DNA of 64,000 bases, taken from NCBI GenBank assembly GCA_964457625.1, contig CAYWES010000001.1, positions 17,725-81,724 of the forward strand, read 5' to 3'. Numbering within the stretch: position 1 is the stretch's first letter; every line of letters starts with the position of its first letter. This DNA comes from an uncultured Candidatus Saccharibacteria bacterium (GTDB lineage: Bacteria > Patescibacteriota > Minisyncoccia > Phycocordibacterales > UBA1550). Of the stretch, positions 21,783-41,050 are shown one piece after another. A program made the translations under genes and the position numbers. The notes under the pieces were generated by a model. That model was not told the DNA's origin, ran no database searches, and was given only the letters and a program-made list of their open reading frames with translations.

Positions 21783-21826
21783 AAAGAAAGCAGGCGGGGG
21801 CGTACGCCCCCGCCTGCTTTCTTTTT
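21783..21826 (+). terminator. Rho-independent terminator after the peroxiredoxin gene
   Basis: About 19-bp perfect stem AAAGAAAGCAGGCGGGGGCG/CGCCCCCGCCTGCTTTCTTT followed by TT. Confidence 0.75.
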
Positions 21827-35274: not shown

Positions 35275-37002
35275 ATGGCTTCATCTGTTGAAGAAATAAA
35301 ATCACGACTCAACATCGTAGATATTGCAGGAGAATACCTCAAACTTGAAAAAGCGGGAGGTAACTTCAAGGCACGATGTCCGTTCCACAATGAACGAACG
35401 CCGTCCTTTGTTGTTTCTTCATCTCGCCAGTCATATCATTGCTTTGGGTGTAATCGCGGAGGAGATATTATTTCTCTCGTGCAAGAAATTGAGGGTATAG
35501 ATTTTCTTGGTGCGTTGAAAATCCTTGCCGACAGAGCGGGTGTTGTTCTTACACGCGAGCACGCTGCTACGCGAGACACAGAGCGTGGTCGAGAGAGTCT
35601 CTACAAGGTTCTCGAGCTCGCAACAAAATTCTACGAAGCCGTTCTCCCCAAGTTTCCGGAAGCTTTGGTATATCTCCATAAGAGGGGCATCACGGACGAA
35701 AGTATAAAAACCTTTCGTATTGGATTTGCTCCCGATGAGTGGAGGAGCCTCTCGGACGTCCTTCTCAAGAAGAATATTCAGGAGACGCTCTCTGATCGAG
35801 CGGGGCTTATTACGCGCTCTCCGAAAGGATTTTATGATCGTTTTCGGGGGCGCATTATGTTCCCTATAGCAGACACTGCAGGGCGTATCATTGCGTTTTC
35901 AGGAAGAGTACTCAAAGACGAACCGGGAAAAACTCTTGGGACGTCATCTCAAGCAAAGTATGTGAATAGCCCTGAGACGGAAGTCTTCCATAAATCTCGA
36001 GCACTTTTTGGATTTCATCAGGCAAAAGACGCGATGCGTCGTCTGGACAGCGCGGTCTTGGTGGAAGGGCAGATTGACCTCGTTATGTCTCATCAAGCGG
36101 GAGTGACAAACACTGTTGCATCTTCCGGCACGGCGTTGACGGCAGAACATCTGGGACTCATCAAGCGCTTTACGCAAAATATTGTGCTAGCGTTTGATGC
36201 CGATGATGCAGGACTTGCTGCAGCTCACAAGGCAATTCTTCTTGCATTAGGAAGCGACATGTCAGTGCGAATTGCCGAGATTCCTCAGGGTCTCGATCCT
36301 GCAGATTTGATACAAAAGAATCCCGATCTCTGGAAGAACGCGATTACGGAGGCGCAGCCGGTTGTTGATTTTTACCTCAAGACTTTCCCTACACGCTTTA
36401 CTGACCAATCTCTTCTGCGCAAGAAGGTGTCTGAGATTATTATTCCTTTCGTGGCTGCGCTAAAGAGCTCTCTTGATCAAGGGCATTATGTAGGAAGGAT
36501 TGCAACACTCTTGGGGATACAGGAAGGACCGGTATGGGATGAGATAAAAAAGGTTGCACTTCCCCAAGAGAACATCCCTCCTGATGCTACTACTCCTTGG
36601 AAACCTCTCTCTCGGCTTGATCGACTCACGAGAAGTATTGAAGGACTTCTCTTGTGGCAGGAGGGGGTGCCGGAGACAAACGTCAGTGGTCTTGGTGAGA
36701 TGCGTAGAACGTTTGACGCCCTTCTCAAGGAACACAATATTGAACACAGTCCTCCAGACCAACACGAAGAAGAAGTCTTTGAAGCTGAGATTAGGTTCGA
36801 AGGAAATGCGAATCTTACTGAAGAACTCAAACTCCTCTTGAAGACACTTGGCGAAGAGATTTTACGGGAACGCTTTACTCGTACAATGAAAGAACTCAAG
36901 CATGCAGAAGCAGAGGGGGACATCGCCAAAGCGCAAGAGCTCCTCAAAGTATGTCAGGAAATTTCAAAAGAATTACACGCCATAACCACCAAAACATCAT
37001 GA
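35275..37002 (+). CDS. dnaG: DNA primase
   Basis: Zn-ribbon [14 protein letters not shown]…[11 protein letters not shown] and TOPRIM region [10 protein letters not shown]…AFDADDAG. Confidence 0.93.
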
Positions 37003-38291
37003 AGAAAAAAATCATAAAAAAGATAAAGAAAGTTTCTCCTTCTTCAAAAAAGAAATCCCCAACGAAGAACGTTGCAAAAAAGACAGCAAAGAAAGTTCCC
37101 GCAAAGAAGGCTGTAAAAAAAGCTCTCCCTAAAAAGGTAGTGAAAAAGGCTTCCACAAAAAAGAAGGGATCATCTCAGATGATTATTACTAAAAAGCCTC
37201 CTGTGCGAAGCGCTAAGGCGACCCAAGAATTTGAAGAGAAAGTAATACGCCTCACCGCAAAAGGGCGCGGAAGAGGGTTTGTTACGTTCAATGAAATTCT
37301 TAAGGAATTTCCTGCTGTTGAAAATGATGTATATTTTCTGGATGAGCTGTACGAAAAACTCCACGATGGTGGTGTGGATGTTCTTGCGTCGGGGGGAATG
37401 CTTGATACAGAGCCTGAAGAACTTCTTCAAGACAAAAAGTACATGTACAAAGGAGGAGACTCTTCATATGACTCGGTGCAGATGTATCTCAAGGAAATCG
37501 GGCGTCACTCTCTCATTTCTGCTCAAGAAGAACGCGATCTCGCAAAACTTATTCAACAAGGCGACATGGAAGCAAAAAATCTCCTCGCGCGCGCAAACCT
37601 TCGTCTCGTGGTATCGATTGCAAAGAAATATGTGGGACGCAGCGCTGATCTCACCCTCCTTGACCTCATCCAGGAAGGGAACCTCGGTCTCTTTAAAGCC
37701 GTAGAGAAATTTGAATGGGAAAAAGGTTTCAAGTTTTCCACATATGCGACCTGGTGGATTCGCCAGGCGATTACACGCGCGCTTGCTGATCAATCGCGCA
37801 CCATTCGTATTCCTGTGCACATGGTAGAGACCATTTCAAAATACAAGCAGGTAGTGCGTCGCTTGAGCCAGGATCTCGGGCGTGAGCCACTCTTGGGCGA
37901 GATTGCAACCGAGATGGGACTTGATATTGAGAAGATATATACCATAAAGAATATTGACCAAGATACCGTATCTCTGGAAAAGCCGATTGGAGATGATGAT
38001 GAGAAGTCTACCCTCGGTGAATTTATCGCCGATGATAAAATTCTTTCTCCGGCTCAAGATTCCGCACAGCGAATCCTTTCGGACCAAGTGAAAGAAATTC
38101 TTGGTGACCTTTCGGAAAAGGAGCGCAAAATTCTCGAAATGCGCCATGGCCTCATTGATGGTGTTGTGCACACGCTTGAAGAAGTGGGCAAGGAGTTTGG
38201 TGTCACGCGTGAGCGTATCCGTCAGATTGAAGCAAAATCAATAGAAAAGATTCGTGCGCACGATAAGGTAGATAAGCTCCGAAACTACTAG
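36999..38291 (+). CDS. rpoD: RNA polymerase sigma factor RpoD (sigma-70)
   Basis: Lys-rich N-terminus. Regions 2-4 present ([37 protein letters not shown], and [20 protein letters not shown]). ATGA overlap with the dnaG stop. Confidence 0.93.
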
Positions 38292-39168: not shown

Positions 39169-39750
39169 ATGGATATTTCTCAAGCTCGATTTATAAAAGG
39201 GATTATTGGGACAGACCCTATCCTCAAAGACGGTAAACGACAGGTTGCCTTTGTGGGTCGATCCAATGCGGGAAAGTCGAGTGTTATCAACTCGCTTCTG
39301 GGGCGCAAGGACTTGGTAAAATCAAGCTCTCTCCCCGGAAAAACAAAAGAGATTAATTTTTTTCTCGTTAACGAATCTTCGTACTTCGTGGATCTCCCCG
39401 GGTATGGGTACGCACGTATGGGTGCTCGTGGTGCGGACAAGATTCGCAAGCTGATTCTCTGGTATCTGGGAAGCGGAGAGGCGCGTCCTCGTCTCGTCGT
39501 CGTGGTAGTGGATGCGGGAGTGCCACCAACTCCATACGATAAAGAGATGGTTGACCTTCTCCGTGCGGAACATCTCGACATGATCATTGTTGCAAACAAG
39601 ATGGATCGTTTGACGCAAGCCGAGCGTGCGCAAAGTATCAAAAATCTTGAAGAAGCATTTCTTGCTCCCGTATTTCCATATTCCGCGCGGACAAAGTTTG
39701 GGAAGGAGGAACTCTTTGAAGCTATCTCAGAGAGCGCGTTTTCCGCGTAA
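39169..39750 (+). CDS. engB: ribosome biogenesis GTP-binding protein YsxC/EngB
   Basis: VAFVGRSNAGKSSVINSLL, DLPGYGYA, ANKMDRL. Confidence 0.9.
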   Translation: MDISQARFIKGIIGTDPILKDGKRQVAFVGRSNAGKSSVINSLLGRKDLVKSSSLPGKTKEINFFLVNESSYFVDLPGYGYARMGARGADKIRKLILWYLGSGEARPRLVVVVVDAGVPPTPYDKEMVDLLRAEHLDMIIVANKMDRLTQAERAQSIKNLEEAFLAPVFPYSARTKFGKEELFEAISESAFSA

Positions 39751-39810
39751 GCGTCATAGGATAAACACACGCAATCTGTTTTTCCCAAGGAATTCCTTAC
39801 AAAAAGCCTA

Positions 39811-39821
39811 GGGGGGGGGGG
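39811..39821. repeat. G11 homopolymeric tract
   Basis: Eleven consecutive G directly abutting TAAAAT (39822-39827), 39 nt upstream of ATG 39861. Confidence 0.95.
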
Positions 39822-39860
39822 TAAAATAAAAAAGTTATTACCCATTAACTTCAACCAAAT

Positions 39861-41000
39861 ATGTTTAATCCCGCAGGCAGAATATCGCGACAGCGTTATT
39901 GGGGGGTAGGTATCCCGCTCTCCATACTTTCAATCTGTTTGGCGATATTGTTAATAGTCGCGCTTCCTTTAATAGCTCTTACCAATTTTTTCTCTCCTCC
40001 TCTGGGAACGTTTATACTCATCGCGGGGTATGCACTCTCAATACCCATTGCGTATGTAAACATTGTCCTACATATCCGCCGTTTTCATGACAGAGATAAA
40101 AGTGGTTGGTGGGTGTTGGTTGGCTTTATTCCAATTATTGGTCCTCTCTGGCTTCTCGTTGAATGTGGATTTTTGCGGGGTACGGTAGGGGCAAACAGGT
40201 TTGGTGAAGATCCTGTCATCTCAGATAGAATGGACCCCGTTTTTAAATGGACACTCATTGGATTTGGAGCAATCATCGTAATCTTGATTGTGTGGAGATT
40301 ATTGTGGGCATATACCCAAGTAAAAAACGATCAAGCCCGATACACGAGCCAGGCAACAACTTCTCCTGAAGGAACCATAAACTTAAGTTTGGAACCTACT
40401 GTTTCGTGGGATGGACTTGACGACAGTAACACCATCACACCCCTCGCCCAACCGACAACAGCAGGCTCTTCCCCTGTAACAATAACCGATGTGTCCACAA
40501 ATGTTTCCCAGGTAAATTGTGATGATAATTGGCAATGTCTTATTTTGGCCGCTAGCCAATGCCGACCAGCGACTGGAACTATCAATTATAATAATCTTCC
40601 CACTCCCCCTTTTGGAGAAGTCTTACTGACTTCAGGAAGAACGAAATATGAGGTTAAAAAATCTGGTAATAGTTGTACATTGGTTTATTCCATGATAAGT
40701 GCATCCTTCGCTCTTTCAGCTGAAGGACGCTCAATGGCGGTCGCTCAAGGTCTTACTGATGCGGAAATTGACGACCAAGTGAAAGCTATGAATGACAGTA
40801 CCAACGATGCTATCGGACGACTAGTAACGTGCACGGCTAGCGGTAATGTTATCGCCTCATATCTCTCAGATACAAAGAATGGTATTCGTGGTGAGGTTAC
40901 TTGGATCATGGACTTTACTCCTGGTTCTGTTATGCAATCTAGAGTAACTACGTCTTCGGGAGAGGACTTTATATGCTCACACTCATCCCCATTAGAGTAG
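39861..41000 (+). CDS. DUF805-family membrane protein fused to a Cys-containing C-terminal extracytoplasmic domain
   Basis: RISRQRYWGV…RRFHDRDKSGWW…FGEDP (DUF805 hallmarks), then one more TM helix and about 220 aa rich in Ser, Thr and Cys. Confidence 0.65.
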   Translation: MFNPAGRISRQRYWGVGIPLSILSICLAILLIVALPLIALTNFFSPPLGTFILIAGYALSIPIAYVNIVLHIRRFHDRDKSGWWVLVGFIPIIGPLWLLVECGFLRGTVGANRFGEDPVISDRMDPVFKWTLIGFGAIIVILIVWRLLWAYTQVKNDQARYTSQATTSPEGTINLSLEPTVSWDGLDDSNTITPLAQPTTAGSSPVTITDVSTNVSQVNCDDNWQCLILAASQCRPATGTINYNNLPTPPFGEVLLTSGRTKYEVKKSGNSCTLVYSMISASFALSAEGRSMAVAQGLTDAEIDDQVKAMNDSTNDAIGRLVTCTASGNVIASYLSDTKNGIRGEVTWIMDFTPGSVMQSRVTTSSGEDFICSHSSPLE

Positions 41001-41035
41001 ACCACATTTTCTTGTAGGCGCTTTGTTCTAAAGTA

Positions 41036-41044
41036 TGCTACTAT
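41036..41044 (+). promoter_or_regulatory. extended -10 box TGcTACTAT, 6 nt before ATG 41051 (leaderless candidate)
   Basis: TGCTACTAT at 41036-41044. Confidence 0.4.
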
Positions 41045-41050
41045 CCTGGT

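What the first reader, a model, noticed from the sequence alone, without database searches (positions are those of the whole stretch)
39797..39863. G11 homopolymer in the promoter spacer of a surface-protein gene: candidate phase-variation switch
Eleven consecutive G (39811-39821) abut a TAAAAT -10-like hexamer (39822-39827). This lies 33 nt before the ATG of the DUF805/Cys-rich extracytoplasmic protein.

A TTACAA -35-like hexamer at 39797-39802 gives a 19-nt spacer. Loss of one or two G would give the optimal 17-18 nt.

G/C homopolymers this long occur nowhere else in the 64 kb. Other long runs are A/T tracts flanking terminators. Poly-G or poly-C tracts in promoter spacers are a classical slipped-strand phase-variation mechanism in Neisseria and Haemophilus surface genes. 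I am not aware of one documented in CPR-type genomes.
Basis: partly seen in the sequence, partly recalled or inferred. Interest (0 to 1): 0.55.

Follow-up and report, generated by a model that had tools for sequence, protein, structure and literature searches.

The report
Conserved poly-G promoter tract in Patescibacteria
Eleven consecutive G's sit inside the promoter of a fast-evolving membrane-protein gene in an uncultured ultra-small (CPR/Patescibacteria) bacterium, and three related lineages carry 9-10 G's at the same promoter position, so this is a credible but not yet demonstrated slippage-driven expression switch of the kind known from Neisseria.

Summary
G11 lies at 39811-39821 and abuts TAAAAT. 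It sits 8 nt after TTACAA (19-nt spacer) and 39 nt before the ATG of a DUF805 gene. It is the only G/C run longer than 6 in 64 kb; 0.01-0.03 runs of this length are expected.

The tract is real and recurrent. Seven other family members were examined, four of them shown to lie directly after rpoD. Three carry G9 or G10 immediately before the -10 hexamer, for example TTGACA-agtgctc-G10-c-TATACT. The three tract-less ones with a recognisable promoter have 17-nt spacers, one of them G-rich and interrupted. Every G/C run of 7 or more in about 105 kb of these loci is this tract.

The organism is a Parcubacteria/Yonathbacteria-like CPR bacterium. The gene has a conserved DUF805 membrane module joined to unrelated C-terminal domains. 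It evolves far faster than neighbouring rpoD.

Actual length switching is not shown. Two same-strain assembly pairs both read G10. An independent assembly of the window strain breaks exactly at the tract, which fits heterogeneity or homopolymer sequencing error equally well.

Verdict: a new member of the porA/opc/fetA-type promoter-spacer contingency loci. I found no earlier report of one in CPR. Interest is moderate.

The parts
39797..39802 (+). -35-like hexamer TTACAA (3 of 6). The alternative register is CTTACA at 39796-39801 (4 of 6).
   Evidence: In alignment A1 it falls in the same columns as TTGACA (L086), TTGCTA (L096) and TTGCAA (L097).
39803..39821 (+). Promoter spacer of 19 nt (aaagccta + G11). 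It would be 17 nt with G9.
   Evidence: Tract-less relatives have 17-nt spacers (L088, L097, L094).
39811..39821 (+). G11 homopolymer, the proposed slippage-prone element.
   Evidence: It is unique in the 64 kb, with 0.01-0.03 expected. G9-G10 occur at the same position in L092, L086/L087 and L095/L096.
39822..39827 (+). -10 hexamer TAAAAT (5 of 6), with G at -13, -14 and -15.
   Evidence: Relatives have TATACT or TATAAT at the aligned position.
39828..39860 (+). AT-rich segment between the -10 hexamer and the ATG, with no Shine-Dalgarno-like motif. The start site is inferred at about 39834, which would leave a leader of about 27 nt. There is no significant structure.
   Evidence: fold z = -0.59; no Rfam match.
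39861..41000 (+). Regulated gene. It has a DUF805 membrane module (about residues 1-120), a fourth hydrophobic segment (about 124-154), an S/T/P-rich linker and a 6-Cys C-terminal domain.
39786..39810 (+). Segment just 5' of the tract that differs at 9 positions in an independent assembly of the same strain. The cause is unresolved: a real promoter allele or a post-homopolymer sequencing artefact.
   Evidence: The same pattern appears in L087 versus L086.
39788..39799 (.). 12-nt perfect palindrome AAGGAATTCCTT overlapping the -35. Its significance is unknown.
   Evidence: Read directly.

Best explanation
The G11 run is a genuine, selectively maintained homopolymer inside the sigma-70-type promoter of a rapidly diversifying DUF805-anchored membrane protein gene. 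The organism is a Parcubacteria/Yonathbacteria-like CPR bacterium.

Proposed mechanism (inferred): slipped-strand mispairing during replication adds or removes G's. This changes the distance and helical phasing between the -35 and -10 hexamers (G11 = 19 nt, G10 = 18 nt, G9 = 17 nt). Transcription of the gene is thereby turned up or down stochastically and reversibly in a fraction of the cells.

The assembled state, with a 19-20 nt spacer and a weak -35, is predicted to be a low-expression or OFF state. Loss of one or two G's would give the 17-18 nt spacing seen in the tract-less family members.

Shown: the tract, its promoter position, its recurrence in divergent family members, and the fast modular evolution of the gene.

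Inferred: the transcription start, that the length actually varies within populations, and that length sets expression.
For: 1. The tract is real. It is internal to contigs from four independent sources: the window (an NCBI MAG contig), L086 (ENA MEGAHIT), L087 (JGI), and L092 and L096 (Logan).

2. Position is conserved. L086 reads terminator hairpin, then TTGACA-agtgctc-G10-c-TATACT. L096 reads terminator, then TTGCTA-aaggatgt-G10-c-TATACT. L092 reads G9-TGA-TATACT, an extended -10. The window reads TTACAA-aaagccta-G11-TAAAAT.

3. Tract lengths differ between lineages (9, 10, 10, 11), and the flanks are otherwise unalignable (mean column identity 42%).

4. Tract-less relatives with a recognisable promoter have 17-nt spacers: TTGACA-17-GACAAT, TTGCAA-17-TATAAT and TTTAGT-17-TATACT. 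L097's spacer is a G-rich interrupted remnant (GGTCGGTGGGGTTG), and L094 keeps GGG before the -10.

5. Specificity is high. Every G/C run of 7 or more in the 64-kb window plus 41 kb of related loci is this tract.

6. The gene looks like a contingency-locus cargo. RpoD next door is 83-86% identical between these organisms. The DUF805 core is only 39-45% identical between the window protein and the others, and most C-terminal domains are unrelated (8-45%). Family members carry different C-terminal domains, some with Fib_succ_major.

7. RpoD has the sigma-70 region 2, 3 and 4 domains and is highly conserved among these organisms. By my own comparison from memory its regions 2.4 and 4.2 are close to E. 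coli sigma-70, so the TTGACA/TATAAT consensus should apply.

8. The independent Logan assembly of the same strain (100% identical over 4180 and 3617 nt) breaks exactly at the tract on both sides.

9. Homopolymeric tracts between -10 and -35 are an established phase-variation mechanism in porA, fetA and opc (PMC2791445).
Against: No read-level data are available. No within-population length heterogeneity has been seen.

The two pairs of independent assemblies of one strain have the same length (G10/G10). These pairs may come from the same or related samples.

The assembly break at the tract is equally expected from Illumina errors at long G runs.

The -35 in the window itself is weak (3-4 of 6) and its register is ambiguous. 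No transcription start is mapped, and no CPR promoter has been characterised in this lineage.

Three or four of the eight family members examined lack the tract, so it is not obligatory.

Confidence: 0.6

Rival explanations
1. The tract is a static promoter element. On this reading the G run is conserved because a G-rich spacer, or the G's at -13 to -15, set promoter strength, DNA structure or binding of a regulator. Its length would be effectively fixed in populations, so there is no biologically meaningful switching.
For: Same-strain assembly pairs have identical length. All tract-bearing promoters have G at -14. A 12-nt palindrome overlaps the -35 in the window, so protein-mediated control is conceivable.
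Against: Lengths differ among lineages (9, 10, 10, 11), and so do the resulting spacers (18, 19, 19). Tract-less relatives use 17-nt spacers without a G run. By established knowledge, G/C runs of 9 or more are intrinsically hypermutable in every bacterium examined. An uninterrupted run would decay by point mutation, as L097 appears to have done, unless uninterruptedness itself were selected.
Confidence: 0.2
2. The tract acts at the RNA or start-site level. Transcription would start upstream of or within the G run. The run would then act through reiterative transcription, as a 5'-UTR element, or as a ribosome-binding-like G stretch, and not as a promoter spacer.
For: In unrelated DUF805 genes of Alphaproteobacteria, G7-G8 runs lie in the Shine-Dalgarno position 5-6 nt before the ATG (L034, L054, L068). 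G runs in DUF805 5' regions therefore recur in another form.
Against: In the CPR loci the run ends 36-58 nt before the ATG, too far for a ribosome-binding site. In all four it is followed within 0-3 nt by a 5-of-6 match to TATAAT. In three (window, L086, L096) a -35-like hexamer lies 7-8 nt before it; none is recognisable in L092. L086 has no -10-like hexamer upstream of the run, and a terminator hairpin lies immediately before the -35. There is no Rfam match and no significant leader structure.
Confidence: 0.08
3. The tract is neutral or a chance product of mutational bias. It would have no function and simply happens to lie in this intergenic region.
For: A single G11 in 64 kb has a small but non-zero chance expectation (0.01-0.03).
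Against: It recurs at the same promoter position in four divergent lineages whose flanks do not align. No other G/C run of 7 or more exists in about 105 kb of these genomes.
Confidence: 0.07
4. The run is a sequencing or assembly artefact. It would be a two-colour-chemistry poly-G artefact or a false join of two contig ends.
For: The Logan assembly of the same strain has contig ends at the run. L095 also starts at the tract, and L072 (from the control set) starts with G17. Error-like tips adjoin the tract.
Against: The run is internal in contigs from four different projects and assemblers. The same genes flank it in each (rpoD or engB upstream, the DUF805 gene downstream). It always falls in the same place relative to the -10 hexamer.
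Confidence: 0.03

Closest known systems
Neisseria meningitidis/gonorrhoeae porA (poly-G), opc and fetA (poly-C) promoter-spacer phase variation
   Same: All have a homopolymeric G/C tract of about 9-14 nt between the -35 and -10 hexamers of the gene's own promoter. In Neisseria, length changes alter spacing and sigma-factor binding and give graded or on-off expression (PMC2791445). The tract length (9-11) and its position abutting the -10 match.
   Different: The phylum is different (CPR/Patescibacteria, environmental and uncultured). The cargo is different: a DUF805-anchored cytoplasmic-membrane protein, not an outer-membrane porin, adhesin or receptor. No experimental evidence of switching exists here. 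The tract is conserved across lineages whose sigma factor RpoD is about 85% identical, a wider span than strains of one species.
Bordetella pertussis fim2/fim3 poly-C promoter tracts, Haemophilus influenzae hifA/hifB TA-repeat spacer, and Mycoplasma hyorhinis vlp poly-A promoter tracts
   Same: All are simple-sequence repeats inside promoters of surface-structure genes that modulate transcription through spacing. This comparison is from my own knowledge. The hif reference is listed in PMC2791445.
   Different: The repeat types or activator dependence differ. The organisms are host-associated pathogens. None involves DUF805 proteins.
Hypervariable repeat gene of a Gracilibacteria (BD1-5) genome (PMC6851277)
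   Same: It is the only CPR case of localised, repeat-associated hypervariation found in the literature search. It also fragmented the assembly, and slipped-strand mispairing is discussed there.
   Different: That locus is an intragenic array of 9-mer repeats encoding PTD tripeptides. It produces protein-sequence variation and is not a promoter homopolymer that would control expression.
DUF805 / YhaH-YhaI family inner-membrane proteins (PF05656)
   Same: The N-terminal 116 residues match the full Pfam model. Invariant motifs such as RFHDR.KSGWW are shared.
   Different: In this CPR clade the module is followed by a fourth hydrophobic segment, a linker and interchangeable C-terminal domains of 150-400 aa. 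Typical DUF805 proteins are about 120 aa.

Membership tests
Promoter-spacer homopolymer phase variation (porA/opc/fetA type contingency locus) | Uninterrupted homopolymeric tract long enough to slip (about 8 nt or more) | tested here: met
   G11 at 39811-39821. G9-G10 in three other family members.
Promoter-spacer homopolymer phase variation (porA/opc/fetA type contingency locus) | Tract lies between the -35 and -10 hexamers of the regulated gene's promoter | tested here: met
   Met at sequence level only. The window reads TTACAA-19-TAAAAT. L086 reads TTGACA-18-TATACT directly after a terminator hairpin. L096 reads TTGCTA-19-TATACT. The hexamers and the tract align in register. The transcription start is not mapped.
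Promoter-spacer homopolymer phase variation (porA/opc/fetA type contingency locus) | Tract length varies at high frequency within clonal populations or between close strains | tested here: inconclusive
   Lengths are 9, 10, 10 and 11 between lineages. Two same-strain assembly pairs are both G10. The Logan assembly of the window strain breaks at the tract, which fits heterogeneity or sequencing error.
Promoter-spacer homopolymer phase variation (porA/opc/fetA type contingency locus) | Length change alters transcription of the downstream gene | not testable with these tools
   This needs reporter fusions or expression data. Indirect evidence only: the three tract-less relatives with a recognisable promoter have 17-nt spacers, whereas tract-bearing ones are assembled at 18-19 nt.
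Promoter-spacer homopolymer phase variation (porA/opc/fetA type contingency locus) | Cargo is a variable, environment-facing (surface) protein | tested here: inconclusive
   Fast, modular evolution is shown: the DUF805 core is 39-45% identical against RpoD at 83-86%, and most C-terminal domains are unrelated. The 6-Cys C-terminal domain is 57-59% identical to a domain found behind single N-terminal signal-anchor helices. However, a simple hydropathy and positive-inside count gives four hydrophobic segments with an ambiguous orientation.
DUF805 (PF05656) | Match to the Pfam model above the gathering score | tested here: met
   E=2.8e-24, 86.1 bits against 25.7; residues 1-116 cover model positions 1-111 of 111.
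Two-colour-chemistry poly-G artefact | The run is found only at read or contig ends and is not reproducible between projects | tested here: not met
   The run is internal in the window, L086, L087, L092 and L096, which come from different sources.
Known structured RNA (Rfam) | Match to any covariance model in the intergenic region | tested here: not met
   No match at E<=1 in 39600-40000.

The most novel reading that the evidence does not exclude
The tract is a selected, clade-wide contingency locus. It would be a poly-G promoter-spacer switch retained, apparently from a common ancestor, in the promoter of the DUF805-anchored protein gene that follows rpoD (with dsbA and engB intervening in the window) in Yonathbacteria-like Parcubacteria. 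This would be the first simple-sequence-repeat phase-variation system described in CPR bacteria. It would give these obligate, probably episymbiotic cells stochastic control of an exchangeable membrane or surface protein, for example for host attachment or phage avoidance.

A bolder add-on: the mismatch-laden 28-42 nt segments just upstream of the tract, seen in independent assemblies, may be real co-existing promoter alleles and not sequencing artefacts. I put this at about 0.15.
Probability: 0.5. Interest if true: 0.65.

Novelty: new member of a known kind. Interest (0 to 1): 0.5.

Why it matters
Phase variation by hypermutable repeats is regarded mainly as a strategy of host-adapted pathogens and commensals. 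CPR/Patescibacteria make up a large share of bacterial diversity, are mostly uncultured, and probably live attached to other cells. Almost nothing is known about how they regulate their surface.

A conserved contingency locus would show that they use bet-hedging on a membrane or surface protein. It would also point to the DUF805-anchored modular protein as a key interface molecule and give DUF805 a first functional handle.

The prediction is concrete and cheap to test on existing metagenomic reads, by measuring tract-length distributions.

There is also a practical point. These tracts fragment assemblies and attract error-laden contig tips, which matters for MAG curation.

Tried and rejected
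1. A genome-contig scan with the whole protein was swamped by generic DUF805 domains of Proteobacteria and other phyla. Those 80 loci served later as a control set.

2. A metagenome-contig scan with the C-terminal part of P0006 matched 600 pattern stretches but no relative. The exact-DNA scan recovered only the JGI contig already known.

3. Proteins sharing the window protein's C-terminal domain (P0002-P0004) lack DUF805 and lie in other contexts. Their AT-rich upstream regions have no tract, so they say nothing about the promoter.

4. The window's proteins are singletons at 90% identity, so no near-identical strains were available for length comparison.

5. G-quadruplex: rejected. G11 could form only a two-tetrad structure, and G9-G10 in relatives could not.

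6. Diversity-generating retroelement as the cause of the mismatch-rich segment: rejected. The substitutions are not adenine-specific and the region is non-coding.

7. Simple lag or lead dephasing as the cause of the tip mismatches: checked by hand against neighbouring bases. It does not fit either tip.

8. Rfam found no match. The leader fold was not significant.

9. The AlphaFold model of the C-terminal domain was usable (pLDDT 79), but Foldseek against the PDB gave nothing with E below 0.07. The domain's function stays unknown.

10. Literature searches for phase variation or homopolymeric tracts in CPR, Patescibacteria or Saccharibacteria, and for DUF805, found no precedent.

11. The many relatives with 85-91% RpoB identity on long contigs would have been the ideal comparison, because the tract lies about 8 kb downstream of rpoB. 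The look-up cap had already been reached by then.

Full report
**1. The observation**

The sequence reads ...cccaaggaattccTTACAAaaagcctaGGGGGGGGGGGTAAAATaaaaaagttattacccattaacttcaaccaaatATG.
- G11 at 39811-39821
- TAAAAT at 39822-39827
- TTACAA at 39797-39802, giving a 19-nt spacer
- 33 nt from the -10 hexamer to the ATG at 39861

A census of all homopolymers shows the next longest G or C run in the 64 kb is 6 nt. Every other run of 7 or more is A or T. Markov expectations for a G/C run of 11 or more are 0.011 (first order) and 0.027 (third order).

The -35 is weak. TTACAA scores 3 of 6 at 19 nt, and the alternative register CTTACA scores 4 of 6 at 20 nt. The generic 16-18 nt promoter scan therefore does not call the site.

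**2. Context and organism**

EngB/YsxC GTPase lies upstream (39169-39750, + strand). The downstream 379-aa ORF matches DUF805 over its first 116 residues (E=2.8e-24). The genes znuA, znuC and znuB follow. Further upstream lie rpoB, rpoC, dnaG, rpoD and a dsbA-like gene.

RpoB is 84-87% identical to proteins named Candidatus Yonathbacteria or Parcubacteria group, and 89% identical to one named Patescibacteria group bacterium. The CPR attribution is therefore correct.

The window's proteins are singletons at 90% identity among about 15 billion sequences. They come from a 144.5-kb NCBI contig.

**3. Is the tract real?**

An independent Logan assembly of run SRR16797977 contains the same strain. 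It is 100% identical over 4180 nt to the right of the tract and over 3617 nt to the left. It breaks exactly at the tract:
- One contig starts at the last G (39821).
- The other ends at 39813, after four G's.

With contigs of 15-18 kb, a break at this precise point is not a coincidence. The other end of the left contig falls in a 42-nt perfect GC-rich palindrome. This shows that assembly breaks at difficult sequence. By itself that fits either length heterogeneity or homopolymer sequencing error.

The artefact question is settled by recurrence elsewhere, described next.

**4. Related loci**

Searching with the protein, and then with its relative P0006, revealed a family. Members share a conserved DUF805 membrane module fused to very different C-terminal domains, with total lengths of 343-553 aa.

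In the longest contigs the gene follows dnaG-rpoD (L086, L088). L089 and L096 also show the 3' end of rpoD directly upstream. These four are positional counterparts of the window gene. In the window, dsbA and engB have been inserted between rpoD and the gene. The upstream gene is not visible on the shorter contigs.

| Locus | Protein | Promoter region |
|---|---|---|
| L086/L087 | P0006 | terminator hairpin, then TTGACA-agtgctc-G10-c-TATACT (18-nt spacer) |
| L095/L096 | P0058 | terminator hairpin, then TTGCTA-aaggatgt-G10-c-TATACT (19 nt) |
| L092 | P0053 | G9-TGA-TATACT (extended -10) |
| L088/L089 | P0007 | TTGACA-17-GACAAT, no tract |
| L093/L094 | P0057 | TTTAGT-17-TATACT, with GGG before the -10 |
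| L097 | P0059 | TTGCAA-17-TATAAT; spacer AGTGGTCGGTGGGGTTG looks like a decayed G tract |
| L098 | P0061 | gene lies 4 nt behind an upstream ORF; no promoter |

The spacer arithmetic was checked by script. MAFFT places the -35 hexamers, the tracts and the -10 hexamers of the window, L086, L096 and L097 in register, while the rest aligns poorly (mean column identity 42%).

Every G/C run of 7 or more in the 41 kb of related loci, and in the 64-kb window, is this tract. The tract is therefore real. It is specific to this promoter and is present in four of eight lineages at lengths of 9, 10, 10 and 11.

**5. What the gene is**

RpoD is 83-86% identical between the window organism and those of L086 and L088. 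The DUF805 core of the window protein is only 39-45% identical to the other members. The C-terminal parts are mostly unrelated (8-45%).

The window's C-terminal domain has six Cys. It is 57-59% identical to a domain carried by proteins that have only a single N-terminal hydrophobic anchor and no DUF805 module (P0002-P0004). This indicates domain shuffling.

An AlphaFold model of that domain is reasonably confident (pLDDT 79). It has no significant match in the PDB.

Several features suggest an extracytoplasmic C-terminal domain:
- An even number of Cys.
- An S/T/P-rich linker.
- Occurrence of the domain behind a signal anchor in other proteins.
- The Fib_succ_major domain in some relatives.

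This remains inference. A simple hydropathy and positive-inside count gives four hydrophobic segments and does not fix the orientation. The evolutionary pattern, a conserved anchor with exchangeable ectodomains evolving much faster than the neighbouring gene, is what is usually seen for proteins under diversifying selection.

**6. Mechanism**

RpoD has the sigma-70 region 2, 3 and 4 domains. From my own knowledge of E. coli sigma-70, its regions 2.4 and 4.2 (…[28 protein letters not shown]… and …[12 protein letters not shown]…) are nearly identical to it. A TTGACA-17-TATAAT optimum is therefore expected, and the three tract-less promoters do have 17-nt spacers.

With the tract in the spacer, each G gained or lost changes the spacing by 1 bp and the relative rotation of the hexamers by about 34 degrees. 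G11 gives 19 nt (or 20), G10 gives 18 nt and G9 gives 17 nt.

The assembled states of the tract-bearing promoters are 18, 19 and 19 nt. That is 1-2 nt beyond the optimum. It suggests, by inference, that the majority state in these populations is reduced expression, with a minority of higher-expressing variants arising by slippage.

This is the mechanism established for the homopolymeric tracts between -10 and -35 of porA, fetA and opc in Neisseria (PMC2791445).

An uninterrupted G9-G11 has been kept at the same place while the surrounding sequence diverged beyond alignment. Apparent decay products exist in L097 and L094. This is the classic argument for selection on mutability itself.

**7. 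What is not shown**

No reads could be examined. Two pairs of independent assemblies of one strain have the same tract length:
- L086 and L087 are identical over 5151 nt.
- L095 and L096 are identical over 2537 nt.

No transcription start is mapped. Whether the genome has mismatch repair is unknown. The many relatives with 85-91% RpoB identity on long contigs could not be fetched.

**8. An unexplained detail**

In both cases where two assemblies of one strain overlap the region just 5' of the tract, one of them carries a dense cluster of substitutions at a contig end, while everything else is identical.
- L002 has 9 mismatches in its last 28 nt (window positions 39786-39810).
- L087 has 8 mismatches in its first 42 nt.

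In L087 the changes damage the terminator stem and turn TTGACA into TTGCCC. All are T>A, T>C or A>C, which looks like systematic post-homopolymer sequencing error carried into a graph tip.

In L002 the changes are of mixed type. They turn TTACAA into TTGCAA, which is the -35 of L097, and extend the G run by one. A real second promoter allele therefore cannot be excluded. Simple lag or lead dephasing does not reproduce either pattern, and a diversity-generating retroelement signature is absent.

**9. Rivals**

- A static G-rich spacer or regulator site is the main alternative (about 0.2).
- An RNA-level role is unlikely, given the distance to the ATG, the flanking hexamers, the terminator directly upstream in L086 and L096, the lack of an Rfam match and the lack of leader structure.
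- Chance and artefact are essentially excluded by recurrence.

**10. Novelty**

Full-text searches found no report of repeat-mediated promoter phase variation in CPR, Patescibacteria or Saccharibacteria, and none for DUF805 genes. The nearest CPR case is an intragenic hypervariable 9-mer repeat array in a Gracilibacterium (PMC6851277).

The mechanism itself is textbook. What is new is the lineage, the cargo family, and conservation of the tract across a clade. I rate it a new member of a known kind, of moderate interest. It is readily testable on existing reads.

Noticed in passing
window 39786-39810 versus L002 3618-3645; L087 1-42 versus L086 3891-3932: Independent assemblies of the same strain are 100% identical over kilobases. 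At a contig end immediately 5' of the G tract they carry 9 mismatches in 28 nt (L002) and 8 in 42 nt (L087). The L087 changes are all T>A, T>C or A>C, and they damage the terminator stem and the -35. The L002 changes improve the -35 to TTGCAA. The cause is either systematic post-homopolymer sequencing error or real promoter alleles.
   Followed up: partly
L034 1259-1265, L054 1702-1708, L068 3954-3961, L072 8-24, L074 3952-3958, L038 3881-3887: The control set is 80 DUF805 loci from other phyla (608 kb). Only 16 G/C runs of 7 or more exist there, and 5-6 of them lie within about 50 nt upstream of the DUF805 start, against about 0.1 expected by position. In the Methyloceanibacter (L034, L054) and Aestuariivirga (L068) MAGs a G7-G8 run occupies the Shine-Dalgarno position (AAAGGGGGGG-N5-6-ATG). 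L072 has G17 10 nt before the ATG, but at a contig start, so it may be an artefact. G runs in the 5' regions of DUF805 genes may be a wider phenomenon.
   Followed up: partly
window 39861-41000; L086, L088, L092-L098: In this CPR clade the DUF805 module acts as a conserved membrane anchor for interchangeable C-terminal domains. Family members are 343-553 aa, some with Fib_succ_major, and several share an Ig-like C-terminal repeat. Where upstream sequence is available the gene usually sits directly after rpoD. The window's 6-Cys C-terminal domain also occurs on proteins with a single N-terminal anchor (P0002-P0004). It has a confident AlphaFold model but no PDB fold match.
   Followed up: partly
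window 21783-21824: There is a 42-nt perfect GC-rich palindrome (aaagaaagcaggcgggggcg ta cgcccccgcctgctttcttt), presumably a strong bidirectional terminator. The far end of the Logan contig, inferred from the contig length, falls exactly inside it.
   Followed up: no
window 39788-39799: A 12-nt perfect palindrome AAGGAATTCCTT overlaps the -35-like hexamer. It could be an operator or could mean nothing. Related promoters have only short CCTT...AAGG symmetry around the -35.
   Followed up: no
window 41012-41050: znuA appears to have its own promoter (TTGTAG-16-TATGCT), ending 11 nt before its ATG. That implies a very short or nearly absent leader. No convincing terminator separates it from the DUF805 gene, so read-through from the variable promoter into znuACB cannot be excluded.
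   Followed up: no
window 36951-37200: RpoD carries a lysine-rich N-terminal extension of about 80 aa (KKxxKK repeats) before region 1.1. A comparable but not alignable extension is present in the relative on L088. The Logan gene call starts 16 codons later than the longest ORF.
   Followed up: no
window 39828-39860; L086 3950-4000; L096 286-314; L092 73-108: None of these DUF805 genes has a recognisable Shine-Dalgarno sequence. The 29-51 nt between the -10 hexamer and the ATG are AT-rich, and the window's predicted leader is unstructured.
   Followed up: no
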